NCBI GenBank assembly: GCA_039916065.1
Contig: JBDSME010000642.1
Location: 1 to 39,057, forward strand
From: Polyangia bacterium
GTDB taxonomy: Bacteria > Myxococcota_A > Polyangia > Fen-1088
Direction of reading: 5' to 3'
Length of the DNA: 39,057 nucleotides
Positions 7,656 through 31,523 of the stretch are shown piece by piece (positions within the stretch are counted from its first letter, which is position 1; every line of letters begins with the position of its first letter). Below the pieces are notes generated by a model that searched no databases, was not told the origin of the DNA, and saw only the letters and a list, made by a program, of their open reading frames with translations. Made by a program: the position numbers and the translations under genes.

Positions 7656-7698
7656 GTGCGTGTGGGGATGGGGGCTGGGCGGCGCGAGCGCGGCGACG

Positions 7699-8469: not shown

Positions 8470-8475
8470 GTACTG

Positions 8476-8808: not shown

Positions 8809-9109
8809 GCGGTTGTCCATTCCGTCCCCTGCCCTATCGACAGGACTGCTGTTTTGCCTGAGGGAAAGTCCTCCTCGGACGCGCCGGTCGAGGTTGCGAC
8901 CGGCGCGCCGAGAAAGGTCCGGGCCTGCGAACGTTCCGACACGTCCGTTTGTCCGATTTGTCCGATTGTCACCATGTTCAACGGTGCCACCCGCCGCCCC
9001 TCCGTCAGGCGAAGGAAACCGGCACGCGCACCGAGCGCGTTCTTTCGATATCCCGGGCGCCGACCTCCACGTGCCCGTGCACCTGTATGTCGACACCCAC
9101 ACCACGTCA

Positions 9110-9129
9110 GGCCAGCAGTTGCGCTGGCC
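9110..9129 (-). terminator. Candidate hairpin (7-bp stem GGCCAGC/GCTGGCC, 6-nt loop) 6 nt downstream of the flgE stop
   Basis: Inverted repeat is seen directly. It is followed on the minus strand by a G/T-rich tract (tgacgtggtgtgggtgt), not a clean U-tract. Confidence 0.3.
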
Positions 9130-9135
9130 CAGACG

Positions 9136-11153: not shown

Positions 11154-11165
11154 GGTGATGTTCTC

Positions 11166-16513: not shown

Positions 16514-17990
16514 GATAGGCCTCCCCCGCCACGCTGGCGATGCCCACCGAGGACTGGGCCGCGGTGAGGGCGGCCGTGGGTGCGCCCCCACCCTCCAGCG
16601 CGCGCTTCAATCCGTCCAGCGTGCTTTGCAGCGAATGACGTTCGTGCGGCGTCTGTTGAAAGAGCGCCCGGATCATGTGCACGCTGCGCAGGGCGCGATC
16701 GACGCGCGGATTCGAACCGGCGACGTACGCTCCCACTTCGATCAAGTCGGCCGACTCGCGGTAGGTGGCAAGCACCTCGCGCGCCTCCATGGCAAGCTGG
16801 CGGTGCTCGGGGGTCACCACGTCCGACATGACGCGGCTGATGCTGGACAGGACGTCGACCGCCGGAAAATGCCCGCCGTCCGCCAGCTTTCGTGACAGCA
16901 CGATGTGGCCGTCCACCGCGGCGCGAACCGCGTCGACGAAGGGATCCGACAGATCGTCGCCCTCCGCCAGGCAGGTGTACATGGCGGTGATGCTGCCGTC
17001 GCCCGCGTCATTGCCAGCCCGTTCCACCAGGCGCGGCAAGGCGGCGAACACCGAAGGCGGATACCCGCGCGAGGTGGGCGGCTCTCCGGCGGCCAGGCCG
17101 ATCTCACGCTGGGCCATCGCGACCCGTGACAAGGAATCGATGAGGAGCAGCACGCGCTTGCCGCGCTCGCGAAAATATTCAGCGACGGCCGTGGCCGCTA
17201 CGGCGGCGCGCACGCGCACCAACGGGGGCTCATCAGCGGTGGCCACCACCACCACGGTGCGCGCCAGGCCCGTCGGTCCCAGATCGCGCTCCACGAATTC
17301 GCGGACCTCGCGACCACGCTCGCCCACCAGCCCCACCACGATCACGTCCACGGCGGCGCCGCGCGCCAGCATCCCCATCAGCACGCTCTTGCCGATGCCG
17401 GGGCCCGCCATGATCCCCACGCGCTGCCCCTCGCCGCAGGTGAGGCAAGCGTCGAGAGATCGAATGCCCAGCACCAGCGGCCGCGAGATGCGCCGGCGGG
17501 TCATCGCGTGCGGAGGGGCCGCGTAGAGTGGCACCCGCCGCGACAGCTCGGGCGGTGGTCCACCATCGACGGGACGCATGGCCGCATCGACCACGCGGCC
17601 CAGCAGCGCCTCTCCCACCGGGATATCGGCGCCCGCGCCGCGCACGTACACCGCGCACCCCTCGCCCACCCCGGCCACATCGCCGAACGGCATCAACAGG
17701 GCTCGGTTCTTCGCGAAGCCAACCACCTCGGCCATCAGCGTCTTGCGCGGTCCGAGCCGGATCTCGCAAGCGGTTCCCACCGCCACCGCGGGCATGGTCG
17801 CCTCCACGATGATTCCCGCCACCCGGGTCACCTTGCCGGCTATGGGCAGCGGTTCGGCGTCGCCGAGCGCCTTGGTGAAACGGGCCAGCAGAGATCGGTC
17901 GGCCCTGTCAGGCCAAGGAGCCGGCGCGGCGCCGCCAGGAACAGATGCGGTCACCCCCAGCGGATCGGACTTGTCGGCCACGTCACTCAT
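16506..17990 (-). CDS. fliI: Flagellum-specific ATP synthase FliI
   Basis: Walker A GPGIGKSVLMG, Walker B RVLLLIDSLSR, and F1/T3SS ATPase-like sequence throughout. Its ATG overlaps the fliH stop (ATGA). Confidence 0.95.
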   Translation of the reverse strand: MSDVADKSDPLGVTASVPGGAAPAPWPDRADRSLLARFTKALGDAEPLPIAGKVTRVAGIIVEATMPAVAVGTACEIRLGPRKTLMAEVVGFAKNRALLMPFGDVAGVGEGCAVYVRGAGADIPVGEALLGRVVDAAMRPVDGGPPPELSRRVPLYAAPPHAMTRRRISRPLVLGIRSLDACLTCGEGQRVGIMAGPGIGKSVLMGMLARGAAVDVIVVGLVGERGREVREFVERDLGPTGLARTVVVVATADEPPLVRVRAAVAATAVAEYFRERGKRVLLLIDSLSRVAMAQREIGLAAGEPPTSRGYPPSVFAALPRLVERAGNDAGDGSITAMYTCLAEGDDLSDPFVDAVRAAVDGHIVLSRKLADGGHFPAVDVLSSISRVMSDVVTPEHRQLAMEAREVLATYRESADLIEVGAYVAGSNPRVDRALRSVHMIRALFQQTPHERHSLQSTLDGLKRALEGGGAPTAALTAAQSSVGIASVAGEAYRG

Positions 17991-18676
17991 GTGGCGTCGG
18001 AGCCGTGGCCGTTGATCACGCTGGAAAGCACGCGACGTATCTCTTCAAGGCGTGTGCCAAGCCGGCCATCGACCGTGGCCGCGTCAGATTCAACCAAGCA
18101 GTCGCCCGGCGTCAGATTCGTGTCGGGAAAGATCTCCACCTTGGCGATGCCCAGGTTGAATCCCATGTCGGTGCCAGCACCACCGCCACCGTGAGGACCT
18201 CCCGACGCCGCGCGCACCAGCTCCAGATCGCCAGGGGCCAGGTGAATGGTCACCCGGTGCTCCTCGGCCAGGCGGCGCACCGCCGACCGCACCAGCGCCC
18301 TGTGCGCCTCCACGTCGGTTTTCAGCTCCGCCTCGAGGATCCGCCGCGCCACCAGGCAGCCGATCTCGATGGCGGTCGAGGCCACCTCCGCACCAAGGCG
18401 GTCCGCGGTCAGGCGCAGCTCGGCGATGGCGCGTCCCAGACGCTCCGCCGCGTCATCGGTCATGTGGCTTGGGGGCGCGGGCAGCGGCGGCGCCAGCGAT
18501 TCCATGCCGTGTGCGCCTCCGTCCTCGCCGTCATCACCGACAGCGTGGAAGACCAGCTCGGCATCGCCGCCGTCGCCCCCGTCGCCGAACAGCCGGTGCT
18601 CCCCCTTTCCCGTGGAGCGGGTCATGAAGCTGGGGCTGCGGGCGCGGCGCCCGGTGGAGGCAGGCAGGGGAGGCAT
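17987..18676 (-). CDS. fliH: Flagellar export/assembly protein FliH
   Basis: Position between fliG and fliI. The C-terminal half (…VARRILEAELKTDVEAHRALVRSAVRRLAEEHRVTIHLAPGDLELV…DCLVESDAATVDGRLGTRLEEI) is FliH-like. I place the start at ATG 18674-18676, 4 nt after the fliG stop, rather than the longer track ORF. Confidence 0.8.
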   Translation of the reverse strand: MPPLPASTGRRARSPSFMTRSTGKGEHRLFGDGGDGGDAELVFHAVGDDGEDGGAHGMESLAPPLPAPPSHMTDDAAERLGRAIAELRLTADRLGAEVASTAIEIGCLVARRILEAELKTDVEAHRALVRSAVRRLAEEHRVTIHLAPGDLELVRAASGGPHGGGGAGTDMGFNLGIAKVEIFPDTNLTPGDCLVESDAATVDGRLGTRLEEIRRVLSSVINGHGSDAT

Positions 18677-18680
18677 AGCC

Positions 18681-19727
18681 CTACACCATCTTGTCGGCGG
18701 GGCCGACCACCGTGATGCGCCCCTGCTCTGCCAGCGTGAAGGCAATTTTTACCAGCTCGCTTTGCGCCAACTCCACGTCGGCCAGCTTGACCGGACCCAT
18801 GGCGCCGATGTCGTCGGACAACATCTGCGCCGCCCGGCTGGACATGTTCTTGAGGATCTTGTCCCTCACCGTGGTGGTGGCACCCTTCAGGGCCACCGCA
18901 AGACGGCTGGTGTCCACCTCGCGCAGGAAGGTCTGGACGTCGCGGTCCGAAAGGTTCGTCAGGTCCTGGAAGGTGAACAGCTTGGTCCGCAGCTCCGCCG
19001 CCAGCTCTGGATCGTCCTTCTCGATCTCCTGCACGGCCTCGGATTGCTGGGCCGCCGGCGTGCGACGCAACAGCTCGACCGCTGCACCCTTGCCGTCGAA
19101 GCGGCGCATGCCGCTGGACACAGCGGCGCGCAACTCGATGGACAGGGCGTTGCCCACCTCGCGCAGGACCTCCGGCGCCACCGCCTCCAGCGTGGCCAGC
19201 CGCCGCAGGATCTGCGGGCGCTGCGCCTCCGGGATCAGCTTCAGCACCAGGCCGGCGCGGGCAGGCTCCATCGCCCCCAGCACCAGCGCCACTGTCTGCG
19301 GCTGCTCCCGCGACAGGATCATCGCCAGGGCCTCCGGGTCGGCCAGGGCCACGGGCCCCAGCACCTCGTCGGCTTGTGGGGGCGGGGCCACGCCGTCGAA
19401 GGCACGGCGGGCCATGTCGGCGCCCAGCACCTGCGCCGCTACCGCGCGCAACATTCCATCGCCAGCGGCCGCGTCGCCACCGACCACATCCAGCGAATCC
19501 ACGAACGACCCCAGCGCCTGCGGCACGGCGTTGGGATTGCGGCGAATGTTGCGCGCCCCGATGGCGACGGCGCGCACCGTGGGTTCATCCAGGTGCTGGA
19601 AGACCGCCGCGGCCAGTTCTGGCCCCAGCCCCAGCAGCACGGCCGCCGCGCGCTGGGTGCCCGGGCCGGCGTCACGTCGGCCGGCGGCGCTGTTGGGATC
19701 GTTGGAATTCGGGGTCGGGTCGGCCAC
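18681..19727 (-). CDS. fliG: Flagellar motor switch protein FliG
   Basis: 348 aa with typical FliG N/M/C organisation (…AAVLLGLGPELAAAVFQHLDE…, …LSDRDVQTFLREVDTSRLAVALKGA…MSSRAAQML…). Confidence 0.95.
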   Translation of the reverse strand: MADPTPNSNDPNSAAGRRDAGPGTQRAAAVLLGLGPELAAAVFQHLDEPTVRAVAIGARNIRRNPNAVPQALGSFVDSLDVVGGDAAAGDGMLRAVAAQVLGADMARRAFDGVAPPPQADEVLGPVALADPEALAMILSREQPQTVALVLGAMEPARAGLVLKLIPEAQRPQILRRLATLEAVAPEVLREVGNALSIELRAAVSSGMRRFDGKGAAVELLRRTPAAQQSEAVQEIEKDDPELAAELRTKLFTFQDLTNLSDRDVQTFLREVDTSRLAVALKGATTTVRDKILKNMSSRAAQMLSDDIGAMGPVKLADVELAQSELVKIAFTLAEQGRITVVGPADKMV

Positions 19728-19730
19728 GTT

Positions 19731-21320
19731 CTAGCTCCTCTGCTCGCTGTCGGTGTTGATCCAGGCCTTCAACAGGTGGGCGGCCCGGGCGGGATCGTTG
19801 CGCGCCAGCTCTCGGGCGCGATCACGCACTCCCACGTTGGGGTCGCCCTGCCCGGCCGCGATGGCGGCGGTGGGACGCATCGAGCCCAGCGCGGGATCGC
19901 CGCCCATCATGGCCTCCAGCTCCCCCACCCGCGCCCCGGGACGCAGCATCCCCATGCTGGACGCGGAGGCTGACGAGGCCAGACCCCGCATCTTCGAGAT
20001 TGCCAGCGCCGCGATGATCAACAGGATCACACCGCCGACGAGCTGCGCGATGCGCATGATGCGCGGCGAGTCCAGGAACGACAGCTTGGTCTCGGGCGGT
20101 TCGACAGGACGGCTGAACGCGGAGGCCGAGATCTGGAACTGGTCTCCGCGCGCGGCGTCGAATCCCACGGCGCTCTTGGCCAGCGCCTCCAGGCGCTTCA
20201 GCTCGGCTTCGGGGCGCGACTTGCCGCCAGGAGTATCCAGCAACACCGCCACCGACAGCTTCTTCAGCCGCGAGCCGCGCGTGATGGTGTGGGTGACGGT
20301 CTTGGTGATCTCGTAGTTCTTGGTCTCGTCCTCGCGGGCGTTGGTGCCACGGTTGGCCCCGCCACCGCCGCCGGGCACGCCCGCCAGCGGCTGATTGGCC
20401 GCAGCACCCGCCACACCCGCGGGACCGGAGGCGTCCTGCTGGCTCTGCTCGGTGGTCTTGTGCTCGCTGCGCACCGCCGAGCCCTCGGGATCGTAAGAAT
20501 CGTTGGTGGTCTCGACTTCGCTGGTGTCGAAGGAAGCGCTGACCTTCGCCACCACGGCGCCCTGCCCCATGGCGGGCTCCAGGAGATCGACGATGCGCTG
20601 CTCGAACGCATGCTCCACGTCGCGCTGCTCGCTGGCGGCCTTGCCGGCGGCGGAGGTATCTCCGGCCAGCACCGTGCCCCGTCCATCCACGATGGTCACC
20701 GCTTCGGGCGACAGACCCGTGACCGCGGAGGCCACCAGGTGGCGCACCCCGGCGATCTCCTTGTCCGCCATCACCCGTCCGGGCTGCAGGTTCAGCGCAA
20801 CGCCGGCCGACGCCTTGCGATCCTCGTCGCGGTACAGCCCCTTCTCGGGAAGGGTGATGTGCACGCGCGCCGAACGCACCGATGCCAGGCGCGAGATGGT
20901 CCGCCCCAGCTCGCCCTCGATGGCGCGCCGCAGGTTCACCTTCTGAGTGAACTCCGACACGCCCAGATCGCCGCGATCGAAGATCTCGAAGCCGACCCCG
21001 CCACCGCGCGGAAGCCCGGCAGCGGCCAACAGGAGACGCGCGTCATAGACCTGGGAGGCCGGGACCGACAGCGCCGTCCCTCCCGCGTCGATCTTGAAGG
21101 CAATCTTGGCCGACTTGAGGTGTGCGGCCGCCTCGGCTGAATCTTCCGCGGACAGGTTGGTGAACGCGTACTCCCAGGCGCCGTTGTTTCCGCCTAGCTG
21201 GGTCACCGCCATGATCACCGCCAGAACGGCCAGACCGGCGAAGGCCCCGAACTTGATCGACGGGGGCAGCGACGCCAGTCGTCTGGGCAATTCGCGCAGT
21301 TGATTGAAGAGCGGTTCCAT
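19731..21320 (-). CDS. fliF: Flagellar MS-ring protein FliF
   Basis: 529 aa with an N-terminal TM segment, YscJ/FliF ring-building motifs (…VPASQVYDARLLLAAAGLP…FEIFD…) and a C-terminal TM segment. Confidence 0.95.
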   Translation of the reverse strand: MEPLFNQLRELPRRLASLPPSIKFGAFAGLAVLAVIMAVTQLGGNNGAWEYAFTNLSAEDSAEAAAHLKSAKIAFKIDAGGTALSVPASQVYDARLLLAAAGLPRGGGVGFEIFDRGDLGVSEFTQKVNLRRAIEGELGRTISRLASVRSARVHITLPEKGLYRDEDRKASAGVALNLQPGRVMADKEIAGVRHLVASAVTGLSPEAVTIVDGRGTVLAGDTSAAGKAASEQRDVEHAFEQRIVDLLEPAMGQGAVVAKVSASFDTSEVETTNDSYDPEGSAVRSEHKTTEQSQQDASGPAGVAGAAANQPLAGVPGGGGGANRGTNAREDETKNYEITKTVTHTITRGSRLKKLSVAVLLDTPGGKSRPEAELKRLEALAKSAVGFDAARGDQFQISASAFSRPVEPPETKLSFLDSPRIMRIAQLVGGVILLIIAALAISKMRGLASSASASSMGMLRPGARVGELEAMMGGDPALGSMRPTAAIAAGQGDPNVGVRDRARELARNDPARAAHLLKAWINTDSEQRS

Positions 21321-21376
21321 CGAGCAGTCCTTTCAGTGACCAGAGCGTCAAATTCAGTTCGGTTGTCCCGTTCGTG

Positions 21377-21694
21377 TCAGACGCTCATCCGCATGATTTC
21401 CTGGTAGGCGTCGATCAACTTGTTGCGCACCTTCATGGCCAGACGCATCGATACGTCCGCCTTCTCCAGCGCCAGCGACATTTCGTGCAGGTTGCCCCCG
21501 CCCATGGCCACTTTCTCGGCCTGGACATCGGCGTCGACTTGCATCTGATCGACCTTCTGCAGGGCGCCGCCCAGGGTCTCGGCAAAGCCGCTGCCCGACG
21601 CGCTCTTCAAGCTGCGGTCGACCTGGCCCACGCTGTCCGACTGCAACTGCTCTGCGCCGGCACTCCCGATCGAACGCATGGTCTCGATGCTCAT
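21377..21694 (-). CDS. fliE: Flagellar hook-basal body protein FliE
   Basis: 105 aa. C-terminal …NLHEMSLALEKADVSMRLAMKVRNKLIDAYQEIMRM is typical of FliE. Confidence 0.9.
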   Translation of the reverse strand: MSIETMRSIGSAGAEQLQSDSVGQVDRSLKSASGSGFAETLGGALQKVDQMQVDADVQAEKVAMGGGNLHEMSLALEKADVSMRLAMKVRNKLIDAYQEIMRMSV

Positions 21695-21728
21695 GACGGA
21701 TCCCTTTCTCCTTCAGCGCGCGCCCCGG

Positions 21729-22160
21729 TCATCGCGCGATGTCCAGCCCGCGCTGGGCCATGGTTTTCAAGGTCTCGACGGCGGTGGCGTTTGCCTCGTA
21801 GCTGCGCGACGCGGACATCAGATTCACCACCTCGTGCACGGGATTGACGTTGGGAAAGGTCACGAACCCCTCCGGATCGGCGTCGGGATGGCCCGGGCTG
21901 TAGACCCGCCGCCCCGGCGTCTGGTCGGCCACCACAGCGGAGATCTCCGCCTTCATCACCGGATTGCTCATGGCCTGGGCCTCGCCAAGCTCCCTGGGAA
22001 AAGCCACCGCCTGGATCACCGGATCCAGCCGCTTGTAAGGGCCTCCCTCGGCGGTACGGGTGGTCTCCGCATTGGCCAGGTTCGAGGTGGCGAGGTTGAC
22101 CCGGGTGCGCTCGACGCCCAGGCCGGCGCCACTGATTCGCAAGGCGGTCAGAAAGTCCAT
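21729..22160 (-). CDS. flgC: Flagellar basal-body rod protein FlgC
   Basis: MDFLTALRISGAGLGVERTRVNLATSNLANAETT… plus the C-terminal …VVNLMSASRSYEANATAVETLKTMAQRGLDI. Confidence 0.95.
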   Translation of the reverse strand: MDFLTALRISGAGLGVERTRVNLATSNLANAETTRTAEGGPYKRLDPVIQAVAFPRELGEAQAMSNPVMKAEISAVVADQTPGRRVYSPGHPDADPEGFVTFPNVNPVHEVVNLMSASRSYEANATAVETLKTMAQRGLDIAR

Positions 22161-22162
22161 GA

Positions 22163-22600
22163 CTAGCTCCCTCCGTCGGAGACGACATAGCGCAGGATGG
22201 CCAGCTTCTTGCCGGCGGCGCGCGCGCTGGCGCCGTACTGAAGGGAATTTTCCGCCAGCCCCGCCATGGTCCGATCCAGATCGACCTGGTTGCCGTCGAT
22301 GCTGGGGCTGTTGCCCGCGCCATCGCGCACCAGCGTGGTGGCTGCCGTGGTGGCGCTCGATTCGTTCAGGTTGCCGGAGGCCGCGCCGTTCACGCCCAGA
22401 TGGCGTTCATCGGTGGCGGCCATGACACCGGCGTTTGCTTCCTGCTGCGCCGCCGCCATCGCTTGCGAAAAGTCCAGCTCCTTGGGACGGTAGGCGGGTG
22501 TATCCGCGTTGGCGATGTTCCCCGCCAGCACGTTGTGCTCGACCAGGCGAACGTCCAGCGACTGCTGCAGCCGCGTCAGAGTTGTGTCGAAAAGTTTCAT
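22163..22600 (-). CDS. flgB: Flagellar basal-body rod protein FlgB
   Basis: MKLFDTTLTRLQQSLDVRLVEHNVLAGNIANADTPAYRPK… The ATG at 22598-22600 is preceded by GGAGG (22606-22610) with a 5-nt spacer. The track's upstream extension to 22624 would overlap the promoter. Confidence 0.9.
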   Translation of the reverse strand: MKLFDTTLTRLQQSLDVRLVEHNVLAGNIANADTPAYRPKELDFSQAMAAAQQEANAGVMAATDERHLGVNGAASGNLNESSATTAATTLVRDGAGNSPSIDGNQVDLDRTMAGLAENSLQYGASARAAGKKLAILRYVVSDGGS

Positions 22601-22624
22601 GCAGACCTCCGTGGTGACCCTCAC

Positions 22625-22690: not shown

Positions 22691-23860
22691 CTATTGCCCG
22701 GCGGCAACGGCTGCCGACCGAAAGGCGCGCAGCTTGTTGCGAAGCGTGCGCAGGCTGATGCCGAGCCGGCGCGCCGCGCGCGTGCGATTGCCACACTCCA
22801 GCCGCAGTGCCTCCCCGATTGCCAGCCGCTCCAGCGTGGCCAGTTCGGTGGGCCAGCCCGCGGGAAACCGCGGATCCCCGGGGAGGGTCACCTCCGACGG
22901 AGAGTTCGCACCTTCTCGCACGCTCGACGCCGCGGAATCCTCTTCACTGACACCGTCGCTGGTGGTGGTCCACTGCGCGCGTCCCGCCCAGTCGGCCGCG
23001 CCCCCTCCGCCGCGCAGGATTCCTGCCGGCAGGTCCAGATGGTTCAGCTCCAGCACTGGCTCACGGCAGCGCACCAGCGCGCGTTCCAGGATGTTGCCCA
23101 GCTCGCGCACGTTGCCGGGGAAGTTGTAGGCGGCGAGCGCCCGCACGGCGTTGGCGCCCAGCCCCGGCGCCTGGCGCCCCAACGATTGCGCCAGCACCCG
23201 CACCAGCTCGTCCGCCAGGGCGGGGATGTCCTGGCGGCGGTCGCGCAGGGGCGGAAGCTGAATCGGAAAGACATTCAGCCGGTAGTAAAGATCGCCGCGG
23301 AACTCCTTGCGGTCCACCATCTCAAGCAACGACCGGTTGGAGGTGGCGATCACCCGTACGTCGACCGGAATGGGGCGGGTGCCTCCGATGCGATCGATCT
23401 CGCGCTCTTGCAGGACGCGCAGCAACTTCGCCTGCAGCGCCAGCGGCAGCTCCGAGATCTCGTCCAGCAGCAGCGTTCCGCCGTCGGCCTGCTCGATGCG
23501 CCCGATCCGGCGTTGATTGGCCCCGGTGAACGCGCCACGCTCGTGGCCGAAGAGCTCTCCTTCCAGCAGCGCCGCCGGCAGGGCCGCGCAGTTCACCGCC
23601 ACCCAGGGCAAGTCGGCGCGCGGCGAGCAGCGGTGGATGTGGCGCGCCAGGATTTCCTTGCCCGTGCCGCTCTCCCCCAGGATCAGCACCGTGGTGGAGG
23701 CCACAGCCACGTCCTCGGCCGCCGCCAGCACCTCGCGCATGGCGGGACTCTCACCGATGGGAAGCAAAGCCGATCGCGCCACCGACACCGTTTCGCGGCC
23801 CGCGGCCTGCGCCGCCGCGGAACCGGGCCGGACCGGTGAGCGACCAAGAGCCCCGTTCAC
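22691..23860 (-). CDS. Sigma54-dependent transcriptional activator (AAA+ domain plus Fis-type HTH) lacking an N-terminal sensory/receiver domain (EBP1)
   Basis: GESGTGKE Walker A begins about 60 aa from the start. GAFTGA lies at 23519-23536, followed by DVRVIATSN, the GNVRELGN motif and a C-terminal [23 protein letters not shown]. Its GTG start overlaps the upstream stop (GTGA). Confidence 0.9.
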
Positions 23861-25758
23861 CGTGGGGCCTCGGCGTTCTTTTCGACGTTCTGGTCAAAGT
23901 TCTTGGCCAGCGCCGCGGAGCCATCAGATGACCGATCAGGTTTGGTGGTGGCAGCACTGGGACCACGCTCGGCACCACCGGATGGCGATCGCGTCGACCG
24001 CGTTCCTGGTGCCGCGGCCGAGGAATCGCCGGCGCCCGCGCTGCCTCCCCCGGAGCCGGGTGACTGTCCGCGGGCATCGCGGGTTCCGTTCAGTACGCTG
24101 CGCGCCCGCTCCGCGAGCTCGCGCGCACGCTTCAGCTCGTTGACCGTGGACCGAAATTCAACGTCGATGGCCGCCTGTTGGGCGGGAGAGACCTCATCCT
24201 GGGCGGCGGCGGCGGCCAGCGCCTGGAATACGGCATTCCAGCGCGCACCCTGGAGGGCCCCGGCGGACGCAGCGGACGCCGAACTGCCGGCGGCTGACTT
24301 GCCGGAACCGTCGCTGGAACCGGCGGCACCACTCCGCCTGGTGCGCTTGAGCTCACTCGGGGGGAGCCGGCTCTGAGCGTACTCGACCACGATGCGCGCC
24401 CGCGCCCAGTTGTCTCCGTCCAGGAAAGTCTCCGCAGCCAGCAGCAAGTGGTCTGAGAGCTGAGCGTCAGGAACCTGCGGCGCCATCGCCGCCAGCAAAT
24501 TGCCGCCGAAGGCGGGGGCACCCAGGCGCGAGGCCAGCGGCGCCGCCGCCTGCGCCAGGTCCACCGCCATCGGTCCTTTGTCCCACCCGACCAGGGCAAG
24601 ATAAGTCTCCACGAGCTGCTCCAGATATTCCCGCTCCGGGCCTTCCAGCGGCGGCTTCTTCGGCGTGCCGGACTTTCCTTCGCTGCCGCCGCTGCCGCCG
24701 GTGCCGCCGCTGGCCAGCCAGCGCGGGTTGACCGCAGCGTCGGCCGCGCGCATCGCCGCGATCAGGATGCGCCGGCACAGCAACTCACCGTCTTCGCGGC
24801 AGACGCTTGCCGCGCCATGCGCCTTCACCTGACGGGCGATCACCTGTGCCGCTGACGGCAACCGCCCCGCGTAAGCCTCGGCACGCGCCGCCCGAATGGT
24901 GGTTTCGGCACGCAGCGGTTCGGGCATCCCCGTCGTGTCGAAGGCACGCAGCACCTGCTGCGTGGTGGTCAGACAGCGGCCATCAAGCTCACACAACCGC
25001 GCGTCGGCGACCCGGCCGAACATCCCGAAGGAGCCAGCGCGACGGTACCAGCCCGCGGCGGTGATGGGGTCGCCGGTGGCGATGGCCAGGTCACCCAGGC
25101 GAACGCAGGCCATCTGGCGTGCGGTGGTGTCCAGGGCCTGCCGAAAGTGCCCGGCGGCCTCCAGCAAGTGTCCGCCCTTCAGCTCGCACTCGCCGCGCGC
25201 CGCCGGCGACTTGCCGGGACAGCTTTGCCCAAGGCCCACCCGCCAGGGGTCGTAGTGGTACGCGGGAGGAGCATCAGGGCCGGGCCGCCACGGCAAGCCG
25301 CGCAGCTCGTTGATGTCCAGATAGGTTTCGTTGCGTTCGTGAGTGAGCTGGGTCTCGATCCGCGCGCTGCGACAGGTCAACTCGACCACGCCGTACTTCA
25401 GCGCCACCTGGGGACAGAGAAAGCCGGCGTGTTTGAGGACGCGCGCCAGCAGCAGCGCCGCGCTGTCACCTTTACCCGGAGTCAGGCGGATCCGCCGCAC
25501 CAGCGCATCCGTGGAGAGCACGATGGGGCTGCGCGTCCGCGGCAGCGGGATCCGCTCCGTGGTGGCGGAGATGGTCATCCGCAGCAAGCCCTGGGAAGGA
25601 CCGTCTCCTTCCTTGGTGGGCCGCCCGGACCGCACAACTGTACTGGCGGGTGCGGAATTGTCCGCCACCGCCGCGGCCGCTACACGCACCGGCGCCGTTC
25701 CATGGCCCGCCAGGGCCACTCCAGGTATCAGCGCCAGAATTGCGACGTTCCACACCAC
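23857..25758 (-). CDS. Exported protein of unknown function, 633 aa: signal peptide, Cys-containing N-domain, helical/TPR-like middle, Gly/Ser-rich low-complexity tail
   Basis: The N-terminal [20 protein letters not shown] is signal-like. I recognise no family signature. The gene is translationally coupled to EBP1 and lies 39 nt downstream of EBP2. It has a GTG start, so the 5' end is uncertain. Confidence 0.6.
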
Positions 25759-25772: not shown

Positions 25773-25788
25773 TGCACCCACCGTGCCG
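25773..25788 (-). promoter_or_regulatory. Candidate sigma54-type promoter: CGGCAC-ggtgg-GTGCA
   Basis: The minus strand reads cggcacggtgggtgca with exact GG-N10-GC spacing, in the 39-nt gap between EBP2 and the 633-aa ORF. Caveat: the predicted +1 (~25762) leaves only about 4 nt before the annotated GTG start. Confidence 0.3.
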
Positions 25789-25797: not shown

Positions 25798-27285
25798 TCA
25801 CGAGCGTGGCGCGAACGGTGAAGATGGCGCGGAGAACGCCGGCTGATCGTCGCCGACCCCGCGCGCGGCGCCTGCAGAGTCGATCGTCTGACCTTCGGGC
25901 GCTCGACCTTCGAGCGTCAGACCATCGGGGCCCTCGTCGGGGCGATCAGAGGCCCGGCGGCGAAGCTTTTCCACCAGCGTGGTCCGTCCCATGCCCAGCA
26001 ACTTCGCCGCTTCCTTCTTGTTGCTGCCTGTCTGGACCAGCGCCGCGTTGATGTAGCGGTTCTCCAACTCGCGCAGCATGGTGGGCAGGTCAATGGGAAA
26101 CTGCAGGATGGGCGTGGGCGTGTTGCCAGTGCCGTTGGGCGCCGGCGCGTTCGCCAGGTGCGCCGCACGCACCTGAGCGGCCATGTCGGACAGTGAGGCC
26201 AGCGACGCCAGCGACGCCACACCGGGCTCGTTCGTGTCGAGGCTGCCCGGGACAGCAGCGTCGGCGACCAGCGTCGGCTCCGCGGCCGGGAACGACGACG
26301 GGGGCGGCGACGACGCGTCCATCGTCAGTGAGCCCGGCGACCGCTCCAGCAACTCGGCCGGCCATCCCGATTCCCAGCCCGCATCGACGTGGACGTCGGT
26401 AGGCGCGGCGCCGGTATCGACCATCACGGGCGGCGGTGGCATGTCCATGGCCGCGGGGGCGAACAGACTGTTCTCCAGGGCGTCCAGGTGCGGAGCCCGG
26501 ATGCCCAGGGGAAGGTCGGACATGCGAATGACCTCCCCTTCCGCACAGACTGACACGCGCTCGACCAGATTCTCCAACTCGCGCACATTGCCCATCCAGT
26601 CATACGAGGACAGGCATTGCATCACGGCAGCCTCGATCGGGCGCGTTTCGCCGCGGCGGGACCAAAAGAAATGAAACAGGGGACCGATGTCGCCGCGCCG
26701 CTCGCGCAGCGCGGGCAGGCGAACCGGACACACATGGAGCCGGTAATAAAGATCGCTGCGAAATCGTCCGGCCCGGACTTCGTCGGCCAGGTTGCGGTTG
26801 GTGGCGGCGATCAGCCGAAAGTTGGCCGCCACCGATTCGGAGCTGCCGATGGGCTCGTAGGACCGCTCCTGCAACAGGCGCAAGAGCTTCACCTGGAGGG
26901 ACAGCGGCAACTCGCCGATCTCGTCGAGAAACAGCGTGCCCCCCTCGGCCATGGCCACCCGCCCCTTGCGGGAGGAGGCAGCCCCGGTGAAGGCTCCCTT
27001 CACATATCCGAACAGCTCGCTCTCCAGGAGCGTCTCGGGGATGGCGCCGCAGTTCACCGGAACGAACCCGCGGGCCTGCCGCGGGCTGTGGGTATGAATG
27101 AAGCGGGCGAAGACCTCCTTGCCGGTCCCCGTCTCACCGGTGAGCAGGACGGTGGCATCGCTGGCCGCCACGCGGGCGCAGGTCCGCTTGGTATCGACCA
27201 GAGGGCTTTGCGGTCCGTGAACCAGACCGAAGGCGCCCGCTGACGAGGTCGACACCTGGTTCATCGTCGTCGCGGAAAACGCCAC
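25798..27285 (-). CDS. Sigma54-dependent transcriptional activator (AAA+ domain, long Pro/Ala-rich linker, Fis-type HTH) lacking an N-terminal sensory/receiver domain (EBP2)
   Basis: GETGTGKE Walker A begins about 50 aa from the start. GAFTGA lies at 26980-26997, followed by NFRLIATNR, GNVRELEN and a C-terminal NKKEAAKLLGMGRTTLVEKL HTH. GTG at 27285 has AGGAGG 9 nt upstream; an alternative ATG lies at 27264. Confidence 0.9.
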   Translation of the reverse strand: MAFSATTMNQVSTSSAGAFGLVHGPQSPLVDTKRTCARVAASDATVLLTGETGTGKEVFARFIHTHSPRQARGFVPVNCGAIPETLLESELFGYVKGAFTGAASSRKGRVAMAEGGTLFLDEIGELPLSLQVKLLRLLQERSYEPIGSSESVAANFRLIAATNRNLADEVRAGRFRSDLYYRLHVCPVRLPALRERRGDIGPLFHFFWSRRGETRPIEAAVMQCLSSYDWMGNVRELENLVERVSVCAEGEVIRMSDLPLGIRAPHLDALENSLFAPAAMDMPPPPVMVDTGAAPTDVHVDAGWESGWPAELLERSPGSLTMDASSPPPSSFPAAEPTLVADAAVPGSLDTNEPGVASLASLASLSDMAAQVRAAHLANAPAPNGTGNTPTPILQFPIDLPTMLRELENRYINAALVQTGSNKKEAAKLLGMGRTTLVEKLRRRASDRPDEGPDGLTLEGRAPEGQTIDSAGAARGVGDDQPAFSAPSSPFAPRS

Positions 27286-27304
27286 CGAGCCGGTCCTCCT
27301 TCAA

Positions 27305-27320
27305 AGCAAGTCATGTTCCT
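27305..27320 (-). promoter_or_regulatory. Weak candidate sigma54-type promoter upstream of EBP2: AGGAAC-atgac-TTGCT
   Basis: GG-N10-GC spacing is exact, the -12 element matches 5/5 and the -24 element 4/6. The predicted +1 would fall inside the SD assigned to the GTG start, so it fits only the ATG 27264 start. Confidence 0.2.
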
Positions 27321-27438
27321 GGCCATCGACCGCCCGGCCGTTTTCTTAAGGCACACCGCCGGTTTTGTGGCGCGACGAGGCGGGATCCTGACGCGAAGAA
27401 TCGCCGCTCATTCACTACAGAACAGACCCGAGCAACCG

Positions 27439-29031
27439 ATGATCCTTTCCGTCGCGCGCGCCAGCGTGTACCCCCTCCCCATGGACGAATCTGCGCCCTC
27501 GAGGCTCGACCCATCAGCTGAGTCGTCGTCCGATCGGATTTCCGATCGGATTTCCGAGCGGATTTCCGAGCGGATTTCCGAACGCGTCTCGGAACGTCCG
27601 TTGCCACGGCCGCGGCGGGTACCTTTGCTGGGACGGTTGAGACTGCTCGGTGCTGGACGGTGGCATCACCCCATCCGCGATCGCCCGGCGGCCTGTTTCA
27701 TCGCGGTGCGCGGGCGCACCGGCGTGGGGAAGAGCACCATTGCCGCCAATCTGGCCGTGGCCCTGGCGGGATTGCGTTCGCGCGTGGTGCTGATCGACCT
27801 CGACCTCAGGCACCCCACCCAGCACCAGCTCTTCGGGATCGCCACGCCGGTGCACGGACTGAAGGCTCTGCTTCGCGAGCAGATCGACACCCTGGAGCAG
27901 GCGCTGACGCCGACGCCGGTGCGCAACCTCCACCTGGTCTCCGGTGATGGTGCGGTCCTGCCCAACGGGGCCGCCGCGGTGGAGCAGCAGCGACGCCTGC
28001 TGGCCCAGATCTGGGAGCTCGACGCGGATGTGGTGGTGGCTGACGTGGGGTCCGACTCTGGCGGCGAGCTGGTGGACCTGTTCGAGATGGGTGCCATTCG
28101 CGTGGTGGTCTCCGCTCCTGATTCCCGTTCCATCCGCCGCGGCTACAACTTCTTCAAGGAACAGGTGGTGCGCGAGATCGAACACGTCGCCGGCGGCACC
28201 TCCGAGGGAGCGCTGCTGGTGGGGGCGCTGAAATCGCCGCACGCGCGTCCCATGAATGAGCTGCTGGCGCGCCTGGGCGGCAAGCCAAACCTTCACGCCG
28301 CCACCCTGCAAGCCCTGCAGGGGTTCACCGGTCGCCTGATCGGGAACCGCATCCGCAACCACGCCGAGGCCGATCTGATGCACGCGGCGTCGCGCCTGCT
28401 GGCGGACTACCTGGGAATCAACGTGCCCGTGCTCGGCACCCTGGAAACCAGCCTGCAGATCGACGCCACGCGCATCTCTGGAAAGCCGCTGCTCCTCGGC
28501 GCCGGGATCGACCGCAACGTGCGTCTGTTTCATTCGATGGCCGCACAGCTCTTGACAGAGGGCGAGGAGTCAGAGGCGCCGCGCTGTGTGACTCGATCGG
28601 TCGCCCCCTCCCTCACCCCCTCCCTCTCCCCTGCCCCGACCGGCGCCGGCGCAACGGTGCGCGCGCCCGTGGTGCCGGACGCCGACGGCGCCGACCTGCC
28701 AAGCTCCCTCGGTGGCTACATGCGCCGTCACCCCCGCCATCCTGTGGACTGGCATGCCCAGTTCCGTTCGGATTCGGGAAAGGAGACTCCGGTGCGCGTT
28801 TTCGAGGTGTCGCAATCAGGCGCCTCCATCGAGACGCTCCCTGGTCTGGACAACGGCGACCAAGGCCTGCTCATCTTCTGGCAGGTGGCCCAGCAGCCGC
28901 AAGTGCGCGTCACCGTCAAGGATGCCCGCCGGCCCCTGGGGCGCGCCGGTCTGGAGTTCATCGACACAGGGTCCGAGGAGGTCGGCGCGCGCCTGGTGGA
29001 GCTGGCCGCGCACGAACGCAGCAATATGTAG
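27439..29031 (+). CDS. MinD/ParA/FleN(FlhG)-like P-loop ATPase fused to a C-terminal PilZ domain. Start uncertain: 27313, 27439, 27481 or in-frame TTG 27625/27637
   Basis: P-loop GRTGVGKST lies at 27712-27738, followed by VVLIDLDL and ADVVVADVG (ParA-type Walker A'/B). After a linker, the PilZ signatures RRHPR (28723-28737) and EVSQSG (28804-28821) occur. Confidence 0.75.
   Translation: MILSVARASVYPLPMDESAPSRLDPSAESSSDRISDRISERISERISERVSERPLPRPRRVPLLGRLRLLGAGRWHHPIRDRPAACFIAVRGRTGVGKSTIAANLAVALAGLRSRVVLIDLDLRHPTQHQLFGIATPVHGLKALLREQIDTLEQALTPTPVRNLHLVSGDGAVLPNGAAAVEQQRRLLAQIWELDADVVVADVGSDSGGELVDLFEMGAIRVVVSAPDSRSIRRGYNFFKEQVVREIEHVAGGTSEGALLVGALKSPHARPMNELLARLGGKPNLHAATLQALQGFTGRLIGNRIRNHAEADLMHAASRLLADYLGINVPVLGTLETSLQIDATRISGKPLLLGAGIDRNVRLFHSMAAQLLTEGEESEAPRCVTRSVAPSLTPSLSPAPTGAGATVRAPVVPDADGADLPSSLGGYMRRHPRHPVDWHAQFRSDSGKETPVRVFEVSQSGASIETLPGLDNGDQGLLIFWQVAQQPQVRVTVKDARRPLGRAGLEFIDTGSEEVGARLVELAAHERSNM
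27529..27600. repeat. 12-bp tandem repeat, 4 good and 2 degenerate units of near-palindromic TCCGA(T/G)CGGATT (rotated: TCGGATTTCCGA)
   Basis: Units are tccgatcggatt x2, tccgagcggatt x2, tccgaacgcgtc and tcggaacgtccg. If translated they give SDRISDRISERISERISERVSERP. GC3 is low for this genome, so the array may be non-coding leader or promoter DNA. Confidence 0.85.
27590..27605 (+). promoter_or_regulatory. Candidate sigma54-type promoter on the plus strand at the 3' edge of the 12-mer array: CGGAAC-gtccg-TTGCC
   Basis: GG-N10-GC spacing is exact (GG 27591-92, GC 27603-04). If this promoter is used, the ATPase-PilZ gene would start at an in-frame TTG (27625 or 27637), roughly 25-30 aa before the P-loop. 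Confidence 0.25.
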
Positions 29032-31289: not shown

Positions 31290-31314
31290 GTTACCGTTAA
31301 CTTCTGCCGAATTG

Positions 31315-31403: not shown

Positions 31404-31420
31404 ACCGGAAATTACAAGTC

Positions 31421-31443: not shown

Positions 31444-31523
31444 CCGCCCTTAACTCAAACTCCTGGCGACGACGGACGAAAATAGAACAGGGACCGATCT
31501 ACGAGCCGCGGAGGCCATTCAAA

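What the first reader, a model, noticed from the sequence alone, without database searches (positions are those of the whole stretch)
27439..29031. MinD/FleN-like ATPase fused to a PilZ domain, divergent from the flagellar EBP genes
Seen in sequence: a ParA/MinD-type ATPase core (P-loop GRTGVGKST at 27712-27738, then VVLIDLDL and VVVADVG) is joined by a Pro/Ser/Thr-rich linker to a C-terminal PilZ-like domain. That domain has RRHPR (28723-28737) and EVSQSG (28804-28821), corresponding to the RxxxR and (D/N)xSxxG c-di-GMP-binding motifs with Glu in the first position. The deviant Walker A is itself unusual: the signature Lys of KGGxGK[ST] is Arg and the following Gly is Thr. Established knowledge: in Pseudomonas the MinD-like ATPase FleN binds the sigma54 activator FleQ and modulates it, and c-di-GMP is sensed by FleQ itself. 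FlhG/FleN homologues control flagellar number. PilZ proteins such as YcgR and MotI act on the motor. Inference: c-di-GMP sensing may sit on the FleN-like partner rather than on the EBP. That would fit the neighbouring EBPs having no sensory domain. The altered signature lysine raises the question of whether ATP-dependent dimerisation is retained.
Basis: partly seen in the sequence, partly recalled or inferred. Interest (0 to 1): 0.7.

Follow-up and report, generated by a model that had tools for sequence, protein, structure and literature searches.

The report
FlhG-like ATPase fused to PilZ
This is a real gene in a flagellated myxobacterium that joins a flagellar FlhG/FleN-type regulator to a sensor domain for the signalling molecule c-di-GMP; the fusion is common but unstudied in this phylum, and this branch has lost a residue normally needed for the regulator's ATP switch.

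Summary
One uninterrupted ORF encodes three parts: a MinD/ParA-fold ATPase, a disordered Pro/Ser/Thr linker, and a C-terminal PilZ domain. The likely start is 27481, not 27439; the stop ends at 29031.

By predicted fold the ATPase is closest to FlhG and FleN. The PilZ domain passes Pfam's cut-off when scanned alone, and its top 41 solved-structure matches are all PilZ domains. Its c-di-GMP motifs RRxxxR and [D/E]xSxxG are invariant or nearly so across 44 relatives.

The fusion is not an artefact, and it is not rare. At least 66 protein clusters (50% identity) carry it, and the named ones are mostly from Myxococcota. Most of these keep the canonical GGGKGGVGKS P-loop.

The window's protein belongs to a derived subclade with three distinguishing features:
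- It has lost the signature lysine (0 of 43 sequences keep it).
- It gained an N-terminal extension with a conserved GRWHxP motif.
- In all seven lineages checked it sits divergently next to a receiver-less sigma-54 activator that heads the flgB–fliI operon.

Best reading, inferred and not shown: a c-di-GMP-sensing, FleN-like partner of that activator. No description of this fusion was found in the literature searched.

The parts
27481..29031 (+). Gene for the FlhG/FleN-like ATPase-PilZ fusion (516 aa from the likely start; the ORF is open from 27313; the stop codon ends at 29031)
   Evidence: ORF. The start is inferred from homologue N-termini. Family of 44 full-length relatives at 35-91% identity.
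27481..27687 (+). Subclade-specific N-terminal extension (residues 1-69), predicted disordered. It carries the motifs MDxLxRxRFDxS and [S/P]RAxxLxR[V/L].
   Evidence: pLDDT below 50; motif conservation. KGG-type relatives match the family profile only from position ~40, so they lack at least its first ~40 residues.
27529..27581 (+). 12-nt tandem repeat (4.4 copies) encoding SDRI/SERI repeats. This is a private insertion in the N-terminal extension.
   Evidence: Tandem Repeats Finder. Not seen in any homologue whose called N-terminus covers this region.
27655..27672 (+). GRWHHP, the near-invariant subclade motif GRWHxP, lying in a predicted disordered stretch just before strand beta-1
   Evidence: G59, R60, W61, H62 and P64 are at least 90% conserved; variants listed.
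27688..28566 (+). MinD/ParA-fold ATPase domain (residues 70-362)
   Evidence: Pfam ParA and CbiA. AlphaFold2 pLDDT mostly above 90. Best solved-structure matches are FlhG 4RZ3 (E 1.8e-11) and FleN 5J1J, 8P53_A, 7EJW.
27712..27738 (+). Walker A GRTGVGKST. This is an ordinary GxxGxGK[ST] P-loop, with Arg at the signature-lysine position.
   Evidence: the signature position is never K in 43 relatives. The P-loop K84, S85 and T86 are conserved.
27796..27804 (+). Switch I / Walker A' DLD (D106, D108)
   Evidence: D108 is invariant and D106 is at least 90% conserved. The context DLDLRxPTQH resembles the DxDxR of tyrosine kinases, but the Arg is not conserved.
28030..28050 (+). Walker B VVVADVG (D188)
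   Evidence: D188 is invariant.
28567..28707 (+). Pro/Ser/Thr-rich disordered linker (residues ~363-409)
   Evidence: pLDDT below 50 for residues 365-399. Length and sequence vary among relatives.
28708..29028 (+). PilZ domain (six-stranded barrel plus C-terminal helix)
   Evidence: Pfam PF07238 at 26.3 bits against a 22.5-bit cut-off. AlphaFold2 and Foldseek: top 41 matches are all PilZ domains.
28723..28737 (+). RRHPR, the RxxxR c-di-GMP-binding motif
   Evidence: R415 and R419 are invariant and R416 is at least 90% conserved in the family. Two Arg four residues apart in this motif (residues 22 and 26 of the 123-aa query) are also invariant when KGG-type fusions are added.
28804..28821 (+). 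EVSQSG, the [D/N]xSxxG motif with Glu in first position
   Evidence: S444 and G447 are invariant. The first position is E (29) or D (15) in the family.
27286..27480 (.). Divergent intergenic region with DNA blocks conserved across six loci: TCATG-N7/8-GCCATCG-N~17-TTTCTTAAG, and GGCGCGGCGAGCCGCGATCCTGACGG
   Evidence: No Rfam match. Function unknown.
25798..27285 (-). EBP1: a sigma-54 activator (AAA+ domain plus Fis-type HTH) with no receiver or sensory domain. It is the conserved divergent partner.
   Evidence: Pfam. The best solved relative is FleQ (8P53_C, E 1e-75). Adjacent to the fusion gene in all seven lineages checked.
23857..25758 (-). 633-aa protein of unknown family lying between the two activators. 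Its position is conserved in relatives.
   Evidence: No Pfam or NCBIfam match. Counterparts of 479-611 aa occupy the same position.
22691..23860 (-). EBP2: a second receiver-less sigma-54 activator
   Evidence: Pfam. Best NCBIfam match is FlbD, below its cut-off. Present in L088, L093 and L094; absent in L001 and L003.
6900..22624 (-). Flagellar gene row: flgB, flgC, fliE, fliF, fliG, fliH, fliI, an ORF in the fliJ position, a 1480-aa ORF, flgD, flgE, flbD, motA, motB
   Evidence: Pfam; ORFs.

Best explanation
**What it is (high confidence, about 0.85).** A flagellum-associated member of the FlhG/FleN branch of MinD/ParA-type P-loop proteins. In Myxococcota this branch acquired a C-terminal PilZ domain that looks competent to bind c-di-GMP.

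**How it most likely works (inferred, about 0.45).** It acts as a FleN-like partner of the adjacent receiver-less sigma-54 activator EBP1, and possibly EBP2. It sets how strongly the flgB-to-motB early flagellar operon is transcribed, using c-di-GMP as the input. These activators have no sensory domain and lack most of FleQ's c-di-GMP contacts, so the second-messenger sensor sits on the ATPase partner instead.

**Proposed switch.** The RRxxxR motif lies at the end of a ~45-residue flexible linker. In other PilZ proteins, c-di-GMP binding wraps the RxxxR linker around the ligand and clamps the neighbouring domain against the PilZ barrel. Here that would change which surface of the ATPase domain is exposed: its dimer face or its activator-binding face. 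The signature lysine has been lost throughout this subclade while the P-loop Lys, switch-I Asp and Walker B Asp are kept. The protein therefore probably still binds ATP but no longer relies on the usual lysine-assisted ATP 'sandwich' dimer, and c-di-GMP may have taken over part of that switching role. High c-di-GMP would then shut down flagellar gene expression.

**Shown here.** Domain identities, motif conservation, loss of the lysine, conserved gene neighbourhood, and the activators' lack of sensory domains.

**Inferred.** c-di-GMP binding, ATP binding, contact with the activator, and the direction of the effect.
For: **Fold.** The closest solved structures are FlhG (4RZ3, 4RZ2) and FleN (5J1J, 8P53_A, 7EJW), with target TM-scores of 0.76-0.84.

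**PilZ.** It passes the Pfam cut-off. The top 41 structure matches are all PilZ domains. R415, R419, S444 and G447 are invariant in 44 relatives, and also when KGG-type fusions are included.

**Gene neighbourhood.** The gene is divergently adjacent to a receiver-less sigma-54 activator heading flgB-flgC-fliE-fliF-fliG-fliH-fliI in the window and in L001/2, L003/4, L088/9, L093 and L094. These relatives are 41-57% identical to the window protein.

**The activator.** EBP1's best solved relative is FleQ (E 1e-75). EBP1 lacks the REC domain and the REC-to-AAA+ linker that carry FleQ R138 and R144, and has F where FleQ has E330 and N186 (residue list in PMC10723142).

**Precedent for a monomeric partner.** FleN can bind FleQ as a monomer, and dimerisation is the inhibitory step (PMC10723142).

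**Catalytic residues.** K84, S85, T86, D106, D108 and D188 are conserved, while the signature position is never K.

**Domain packing.** The whole-protein model has pTM 0.77 despite ~100 disordered residues. This suggests the two domains are placed confidently against each other; it is an inference, as no error map was available.
Against: - No binding or interaction has been measured.
- In Pseudomonas, fleN is not next to fleQ, so adjacency here is not a family trait and could reflect shared regulation only.
- A stable FleQ-FleN complex needs the FleQ receiver domain, which EBP1 lacks.
- EBP1's match to FleQ (E 1e-75) is barely better than its match to ZraR (4e-74) or NtrC-type proteins.
- The sister KGG-type fusions sit next to flagellin/fliD/fliS genes, or in one case outside flagellar loci, and not next to activators. 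The ancestral role of the fusion was therefore probably not activator control.
- The first residue of the second PilZ motif is Glu in about two thirds of the subclade rather than the textbook Asp/Asn.
- PilZ is not listed by Pfam for the whole protein.
Confidence: 0.45

Rival explanations
1. **FlhG-type assembly factor with a c-di-GMP input.** The protein works at the basal body rather than on transcription. Like FlhG it would bind C-ring proteins (FliM/FliN/FliG) and control flagellar number or placement. Alternatively its PilZ domain would engage MotA or FliG as a brake, as in YcgR and MotI. In this reading, adjacency to the activator reflects co-expression only.
For: - FlhG is the top fold match.
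- Sister KGG-type fusions and PilZ-less relatives lie beside flagellin-fliD-fliS or motAB genes.
- MotI and YcgR are among the PilZ structure matches.
- The gene sits beside the operon that encodes FliG and MotAB.
Against: - There is no recognisable C-terminal amphipathic membrane-targeting helix; the ATPase domain is followed by the linker and PilZ.
- There is no DQAxxLR motif at the N-terminus.
- No flhF or flhA lies in the 39-kb window.
- There is no YcgR-type N-terminal PilZN domain.
- The EBP-adjacent position is specific to this subclade and strictly conserved (seven of seven lineages).
Confidence: 0.25
2. **Degenerate ATPase used as a scaffold.** Having lost the signature lysine, the P-loop domain no longer cycles. 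The protein would be a c-di-GMP receptor or adaptor whose target is not the flagellar activator. Candidates include the conserved 480-633-aa unknown protein in the same locus, or a polarity factor.
For: - The signature lysine is lost in 43 of 43 sequences and the position is variable.
- The switch-I context is altered.
- A conserved short motif, GRWHxP, lies in a disordered N-terminal extension, which is typical of a docking peptide.
- One KGG-type fusion, P0181, lies in a non-flagellar neighbourhood.
Against: - The P-loop Lys/Ser/Thr, both switch-I Asp residues and the Walker B Asp remain invariant or nearly so. This argues for retained nucleotide binding.
- The flagellar neighbourhood is conserved in every member of the subclade that was examined.
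Confidence: 0.15
3. **Bacterial tyrosine (BY) autokinase-like enzyme.** The P-loop domain is really of the CapB/Wzc type and phosphorylates tyrosines.
For: - The best sequence-only matches to solved structures are CapB, Wzc and BceF (E ~1e-9, residues 74-169).
- The best NCBIfam matches are tyrosine autokinase models.
- The Walker A GxxGxGKS and the DLDLRxP context resemble the BY-kinase A and A' motifs.
Against: - The matches cover only ~95 residues and lie far below the NCBIfam cut-offs (52 vs 108 bits).
- The Arg of DxDxR is not conserved in the family.
- There is no C-terminal tyrosine cluster.
- No BY-kinase appears among the top 50 fold matches, which are FlhG, FleN, MinD, Soj and NifH.
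- KGG-type FlhG-like proteins match over ~275 residues at 33-36% identity, and a distance tree nests the subclade inside them.
Confidence: 0.03
4. **Assembly or frameshift artefact** joining two separate genes.
For: None beyond the low-complexity linker and a 12-nt tandem repeat near the 5' end.
Against: The same continuous two-domain ORF is found on more than 40 independent contigs from different studies, and in at least 66 clusters at 50% identity.
Confidence: 0.01

Closest known systems
FleN, the antiactivator of FleQ (Pseudomonas aeruginosa; PDB 5J1J, 7EJW, 8P53, 8PB9)
   Same: MinD/ParA fold, with target TM-scores of 0.76-0.84. It is linked to a sigma-54 flagellar master activator whose AAA+ domain is the best solved relative of EBP1. 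c-di-GMP is an input to the same regulatory pair.
   Different: - FleN has the KGGxGK signature and works through an ATP sandwich dimer; this protein has no signature lysine.
- In Pseudomonas c-di-GMP binds FleQ, not FleN; here the PilZ domain is on the ATPase and the activator lacks R138, R144 and E330.
- FleQ has a receiver domain needed for a stable complex; EBP1 has none.
- fleN is not adjacent to fleQ.
FlhG (YlxH/MinD2) of Geobacillus, Bacillus, Vibrio, Shewanella and Campylobacter (PDB 4RZ2, 4RZ3)
   Same: Best fold match (E 1.8e-11). Encoded among flagellar genes. JGI names many family members 'FlhG'.
   Different: There is no C-terminal amphipathic membrane-targeting helix, no DQAxxLR FlhF-activating motif, and no flhF or flhA nearby. 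A PilZ domain and an N-terminal GRWHxP extension have been added, and the signature lysine is lost.
KGG-type FlhG-like-PilZ fusions of Myxococcota (e.g. P0171, 'PilZ domain-containing protein [Myxococcales bacterium]'; P0203; P0146)
   Same: Same two-domain architecture and the same PilZ motifs. A distance tree nests the window's subclade inside them.
   Different: They keep GGGKGGVGKS, lack the N-terminal extension, and sit next to flagellin-fliD-fliS-fliT-HDOD genes or elsewhere rather than next to a sigma-54 activator. They are uncharacterised too.
YcgR, MotI (DgrA), FlgZ and MotL: PilZ proteins that act on the flagellar motor
   Same: A PilZ domain with RxxxR and DxSxxG motifs. They couple c-di-GMP to flagellar function and are structure matches.
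   Different: They are small stand-alone proteins or PilZN-PilZ proteins that bind MotA or FliG. None carries a P-loop ATPase.
BcsQ with BcsE and BcsA-PilZ (enterobacterial cellulose secretion)
   Same: A MinD-type ATPase working in one system with c-di-GMP receptors, including a PilZ domain. BcsQ is a fold match (6YAY).
   Different: The ATPase and PilZ are separate proteins, and the system is cellulose secretion rather than flagella.
Bacterial tyrosine kinases CapB, Wzc and Etk
   Same: An ordinary Walker A without the signature lysine, and a DxDxR-like switch. They are the best sequence-only matches to solved structures.
   Different: The similarity covers only ~95 residues. There is no tyrosine cluster, and they are not among the top fold matches.

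Membership tests
MinD/ParA (SIMIBI) P-loop ATPases | Characteristic fold with P-loop, switch I Asp and Walker B Asp | tested here: met
   Pfam ParA and CbiA pass their cut-offs. The fold matches FlhG, FleN, MinD, Soj and NifH. K84, S85, T86, D106, D108 and D188 are conserved.
MinD/ParA (SIMIBI) P-loop ATPases | Deviant Walker A KGGxxGK[ST] with a signature lysine | tested here: not met
   The window has RGRTGVGKST. The signature position is R/S/Q/P/A/N/M/G in 43 relatives and never K.
MinD/ParA (SIMIBI) P-loop ATPases | ATP-dependent sandwich dimerisation | not testable with these tools
   Needs SEC-MALS or a crystal structure with and without ATP.
FlhG/FleN | Closest relatives and fold are FlhG/FleN rather than MinD, Soj or Mrp | tested here: met
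   Foldseek ranks 1-5 are FlhG and FleN. The nearest PilZ-less homologues are flagellar-locus MinD-like proteins that JGI names FlhG.
FlhG/FleN | C-terminal amphipathic membrane-targeting helix | tested here: not met
   The last ATPase helix (residues 345-361) is followed by a disordered linker and PilZ. The only terminal helix is the PilZ domain's own.
FlhG/FleN | N-terminal DQAxxLR motif that activates FlhF | tested here: not met
   The N-termini read ...[S/P]RAxxLxR[V/L]...GRWHxP, with no DQA. The loose resemblance was not evaluated further.
FlhG/FleN | Encoded with flhA-flhF-(flhG)-fliA | tested here: not met
   No flhF, flhA or fliA in the 39-kb window or in the ±7-10-kb flanks examined in related loci. 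The rest of the genome was not available.
PilZ domain (PF07238) | Profile match above the curated cut-off | tested here: met
   26.3 bits against 22.5 on the isolated domain. It is not listed when the whole protein is scanned. PF07238 is precomputed for about half of the relatives.
PilZ domain (PF07238) | RxxxR and [D/N]xSxxG c-di-GMP-binding motifs | tested here: met
   RRHPR and EVSQSG are present. R415, R419, S444 and G447 are invariant. The first position of the second motif is E or D, never N.
PilZ domain (PF07238) | Six-stranded beta-barrel with a C-terminal helix | tested here: met
   AlphaFold2 model with pLDDT 89; top 41 PDB matches are all PilZ domains.
PilZ domain (PF07238) | Binds c-di-GMP | not testable with these tools
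   Requires ITC, MST or DRaCALA.
YcgR family | N-terminal PilZN (YcgR_N) domain before PilZ | tested here: not met
   The N-terminal part is a ParA/CbiA ATPase.
Bacterial tyrosine (BY) kinases | Walker A, A' (DxDxR) and B (DxxP) motifs plus a C-terminal tyrosine cluster; profile match | tested here: not met
   NCBIfam tyrosine-kinase models score 39-52 bits against cut-offs of 108-1068. The A' Arg is not conserved. There is no tyrosine cluster. No BY-kinase is among the top 50 fold matches.
FleQ-type c-di-GMP-binding activator (tested on the neighbour EBP1) | REC domain, linker R138/R144, post-Walker-A R185, E330/R334 | tested here: not met
   There is no REC domain or linker; the AAA+ domain starts at residue ~27. 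R185 and R334 equivalents are present, but N186 and E330 are both replaced by F. Residue list from PMC10723142.

The most novel reading that the evidence does not exclude
In this subclade, c-di-GMP binding to the fused PilZ domain has replaced the lysine-assisted ATP sandwich dimer as the conformational switch of a MinD/ParA-class regulator. A second messenger, rather than the ATPase cycle, would then decide when the protein silences a sensor-less sigma-54 flagellar master activator. That would be a swap of the controlling nucleotide within a SIMIBI protein, and a relocation of the FleQ-type c-di-GMP sensor onto its partner.
Probability: 0.15. Interest if true: 0.8.

Novelty: new variant of a known kind. 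Interest (0 to 1): 0.55.

Why it matters
Several mechanisms are known by which c-di-GMP turns off flagella. It can bind the master activator (FleQ, FlrA), or it can act through small PilZ brakes on the motor. A FlhG/FleN-type ATPase carrying its own PilZ domain would be a third route.

This subclade pairs that protein with an activator that has no sensor of its own. That makes a clean, testable case for how a signalling input can move from one partner of a regulatory pair to the other.

The family-wide loss of the signature lysine, with the rest of the nucleotide pocket kept, also gives a natural experiment on whether MinD/ParA-type proteins can work without the canonical ATP sandwich dimer.

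The fusion is abundant in flagellated Myxococcota, members of a phylum best known for gliding, non-flagellated species. Databases label it only 'P-loop NTPase', 'FlhG' or 'PilZ domain-containing protein'.

Tried and rejected
**Led nowhere.**
It returned only distant MinD-like genes and no true family members, so it gave no species list.
2. I could not settle whether the window-type protein and a KGG-type FlhG-PilZ or a canonical FlhF/FlhG occur in the same genome. NCBI accessions of ten members come from different assemblies, and whole genomes could not be fetched.
3. A sigma-54 promoter scan (TGGCAC-N5-TTGC, up to 2 mismatches) found 38 hits against 48 expected by chance. The well-placed ones are leads only: 25774-25788 before the 633-aa gene, 22626-22640 before flgB, and 27306-27320 before EBP1. 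The last of these is not in register with the equivalent sequence in L001.
4. Rfam found nothing in the conserved 5' intergenic region.
5. Searches of the held literature found no description of a FlhG-, MinD- or ParA-PilZ fusion. These included the Galperin and Chou PilZ survey preprint and the M. xanthus PilZ study. Subscription-only papers were not searchable.

**Considered and rejected.**
1. The conserved block upstream of 27481 as a coding N-terminal extension from the ATG at 27313. The frame is closed by stops in L003 and L094.
2. The tyrosine-kinase reading. See the rival explanations.
3. Arginine as a functional replacement for the signature lysine. Only 21 of 43 relatives have Arg there.


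Full report
**1. The observation**

The region holds one uninterrupted ORF, 27313..29031 on the + strand, 572 aa. Full-length relatives begin with MD[DE]LxRxRFDxS. This aligns with MDESAPSRLDPS in the window, so the most likely start is M57 of the ORF at nt 27481, giving 516 aa. The database gene call (P0001, 464 aa) is probably too short.

- GRTGVGKST = residues 78-86 = 27712-27738
- RRHPR = residues 415-419 = 28723-28737
- EVSQSG = residues 442-447 = 28804-28821

Pfam finds ParA (PF10609, E 2.5e-10) and CbiA on the whole protein. It does not list PilZ there. When the last 117 residues are scanned alone, PilZ (PF07238) passes its gathering score (26.3 vs 22.5 bits, E 9.5e-6).

An AlphaFold2 model built on 44 relatives has mean pLDDT 80.8 and pTM 0.77. 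It shows:
- a well-ordered ATPase domain (residues 70-362)
- a disordered linker (residues 365-399)
- a six-stranded barrel with a terminal helix (residues 420-515)
- a disordered N-terminal extension of about 69 residues

A separate model of the C-terminal 123 residues has pLDDT 89. Its top 41 matches among solved structures are all PilZ domains: Alg44, MapZ, BcsA, PlzD, MrkH, MotI and YcgR.

**2. Not an artefact, and not rare**

A word-indexed search found about 57 proteins of 345-527 aa, most of them full length (420-527 aa). They are 35-91% identical to the window protein across both domains. They come from independent metagenome and MAG contigs labelled Myxococcales or Polyangia.

A second search used the nearest PilZ-less relative (P0060) as query. 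An exhaustive profile search was also run over 1.84 billion cluster representatives. Together they show that this family is one branch of a much larger set:
- 561 clusters at 50% identity match at E ≤ 1e-30.
- Of the best 150 representatives, 100 are at least 400 aa long.
- At least 66 of those carry RxxxR...[D/N/E]xSxxG downstream of the ATPase.

Where a source gives a name, it is 'P-loop NTPase', 'AAA family ATPase', 'PilZ domain-containing protein' or 'FlhG'. The organisms named are Myxococcota, Polyangiales, Sandaracinaceae, or 'Deltaproteobacteria bacterium'.

**3. What distinguishes the window's branch**

Most fusions keep the canonical deviant Walker A, GGGKGGVGKS. The window's branch has an ordinary GxxGxGKST instead.

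The rest of the nucleotide pocket is conserved: K84, S85, T86, D106, D108 and D188.

A rough neighbour-joining tree of the ATPase domain (133 sequences, no support values) gives three results:
- All lysine-less proteins fall in one clade.
- That clade is nested inside the KGG-type fusions.
- PilZ-less forms such as P0060 are nested there too.

So the PilZ fusion came first, the lysine was lost once, and some lineages later lost PilZ. P0059 and P0060 still carry a tail, RQRAYARSSPNWP, that aligns with YMRRHPRHPVDW.

The branch also has an N-terminal extension of about 60 residues that KGG-type proteins lack. It contains a near-invariant GRWHxP motif in a stretch predicted to be disordered. The window's copy alone has a 12-nt tandem repeat (27529-27581) inserted there, encoding SDRI/SERI repeats.

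**4. Family placement**

Sequence-only comparison with solved structures and with NCBIfam points first to bacterial tyrosine kinases such as CapB and Wzc. These matches cover only about 95 residues around the P-loop and fall far below the curated cut-offs.

Fold comparison ranks FlhG (4RZ3, 4RZ2) and FleN (5J1J, 8P53_A, 7EJW) first. MinD, Soj and NifH-type proteins follow, and no tyrosine kinase appears in the top 50. KGG-type FlhG-like proteins match over about 275 residues at 33-36% identity.

I therefore place the ATPase in the FlhG/FleN branch by descent and fold. It fails three defining features of that branch:
- the signature lysine
- a C-terminal amphipathic membrane-targeting helix
- a DQAxxLR N-terminal motif

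It also has no flhF or flhA nearby.

**5. Gene neighbourhood**

On the minus strand the window carries, in order: EBP1 (25798-27285), a 633-aa unknown protein (23857-25758), EBP2 (22691-23860), then flgB, flgC, fliE, fliF, fliG, fliH and fliI. These are followed by an ORF in the fliJ position, a 1480-aa unknown ORF, flgD, flgE, flbD, motA and motB.

The fusion gene is transcribed divergently from EBP1 and is followed by a convergent, unrelated gene, so it is monocistronic.

The same divergent pairing with a sigma-54 activator heading the flgB-fliI row occurs in six further lineages at 41-57% identity: L001/L002, L003/L004, L088/L089, L093 and L094. The two-activator layout is present in the window, L088, L093 and L094.

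Both activators lack any N-terminal sensory domain.

By contrast, KGG-type fusions lie beside flagellin-fliD-fliS-fliT-HDOD genes (P0171, P0203), or in one case among housekeeping genes (P0181). The PilZ-less P0060 type lies upstream of motAB, with GGDEF and REC-EAL neighbours (the ORF layout in L008 looks the same).

**6. The activators and c-di-GMP**

EBP1's best solved relative is FleQ (E 1e-75), although ZraR and NtrC-type proteins score almost as well.

FleQ binds c-di-GMP through R138, R144, R185, R334 and E330 in cis, and R151 and E332 in trans (PMC10723142). EBP1 compares as follows:
- It has no REC domain and no REC-to-AAA+ linker, so R138 and R144 have no counterpart.
- It keeps the R185 and R334 equivalents, which also serve ATP hydrolysis.
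- It has F in place of N186 and E330.

Against a simple FleQ-FleN analogy, a stable FleQ-FleN complex requires the FleQ receiver domain. It does not require FleN dimerisation, and monomeric FleN still binds.

**7. Mechanism**

Most likely (about 0.45), the protein is a c-di-GMP-responsive, FleN-like modulator of EBP1, and perhaps EBP2. It would set transcription of the early flagellar operon.

The RRxxxR motif lies at the end of the flexible linker. In characterised PilZ proteins, ligand binding orders the RxxxR linker and clamps the adjacent domain to the barrel; this point rests on established knowledge of YcgR and PlzD-type proteins and was not tested here. That would re-expose or mask a surface of the ATPase domain. 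The lost signature lysine suggests that the ATP sandwich dimer is no longer the main switch.

The rival readings are:
- a basal-body FlhG-type role with a PilZ brake (0.25)
- a non-cycling scaffold with another target (0.15)
- a tyrosine kinase (0.03)
- an artefact (0.01)

**8. Novelty**

No description of a FlhG-, MinD- or ParA-PilZ fusion was found in the searchable literature. The parts and the logic are all known kinds, so I rate this a new variant of a known kind.

Noticed in passing
window 27286-27480 (compare L001 9824-10027, L003 9798-10000, L088 9853-10000, L093 6830-7000, L094 6907-7000): The divergent intergenic region keeps two DNA blocks across loci whose proteins are only 41-57% identical to the window's: TCATG-N7/8-GCCATCG-N~17-TTTCTTAAG, and GGCGCGGCGAGCCGCGATCCTGACGG (a GCGGC-GA-GCCGC palindrome in three loci). 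The blocks are not coding, because stops close the frame in L003 and L094. There is no Rfam match. On the minus strand the first block resembles a sigma-28-type TAAA-N15-GCCGATAA promoter pointing at EBP1.
   Followed up: partly
window 27529-27581: A 12-nt tandem repeat (4.4 copies, 97% matches) encodes SDRI/SERI repeats inside the N-terminal extension of the fusion protein. No homologue has it, so it is a recent in-frame expansion.
   Followed up: partly
window 11166-15608 (-): A 1480-aa ORF with no Pfam or NCBIfam match lies between the fliJ-position ORF and flgD, where a hook-length regulator (fliK) would normally sit. A counterpart of at least 1099 aa is seen at the edge of L003. It may be a giant, divergent FliK.
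   Followed up: no
window 23857-25758 (-): A 633-aa protein with a hydrophobic N-terminus and no family match is sandwiched between the two sigma-54 activators. Proteins of 479-611 aa occupy the same position in L001, L003, L088 and L094. It is a conserved, unnamed component of this flagellar regulatory locus.
   Followed up: partly
window 25798-27285 and 22691-23860 (-): These are two paralogous sigma-54 activators without receiver domains in one flagellar locus. The arrangement recalls FleQ/FleT of Rhodobacter (comparison from memory). EBP1 has a ~130-residue Pro/Ala-rich insert between the AAA+ and HTH domains. EBP1 starts at GTG 27285, with an AAGGAGGA ribosome-binding site 8 nt upstream.
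   Followed up: partly
window 25774-25788 (-), 22626-22640 (-), 27306-27320 (-): GG-N10-GC sigma-54-like elements lie just upstream of the 633-aa gene, flgB and EBP1. Window-wide, such matches are no more frequent than chance (38 found vs 48 expected).
   Followed up: partly
L005 4025-5200, L008 9890-11065: A PilZ-less, KGG-type FlhG-like protein (P0060, 391 aa) of Polyangiales sits directly upstream of motAB, with GGDEF and REC-EAL genes beside it. Its C-terminal tail, RQRAYARSSPNWP, aligns with the start of the PilZ domain and looks like a remnant of a lost PilZ.
   Followed up: partly
L003 12876-14264; L094 8801-15399: In one relative, an HD-GYP-like gene (HD_5 plus HD) lies 1.4 kb downstream of the fusion gene. 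In another, a WYL regulator and a type I CRISPR-Cas cassette with Cas8b, Cas6 and Cas3 (probably subtype I-B) follow it. The downstream neighbourhood is therefore not conserved.
   Followed up: no
window 15605-16591 (-) and 8476-9105 (-): The ORF in the fliJ position (328 aa) gives only weak MgtE_N and FliG_M-like matches. The FlbD ORF is 209 aa, with the FlbD domain at residues 100-158. That is much longer than a typical FlbD, so it may be a start-codon overcall or a real N-terminal extension.
   Followed up: no
window 31122-34696 (+): A DUF1592/1588/1595/1585/1587 protein is followed by a DUF1552 protein. This gene pair is typical of Planctomycetes (from memory) and here lies in a myxobacterial context, unrelated to the flagellar locus.
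   Followed up: no
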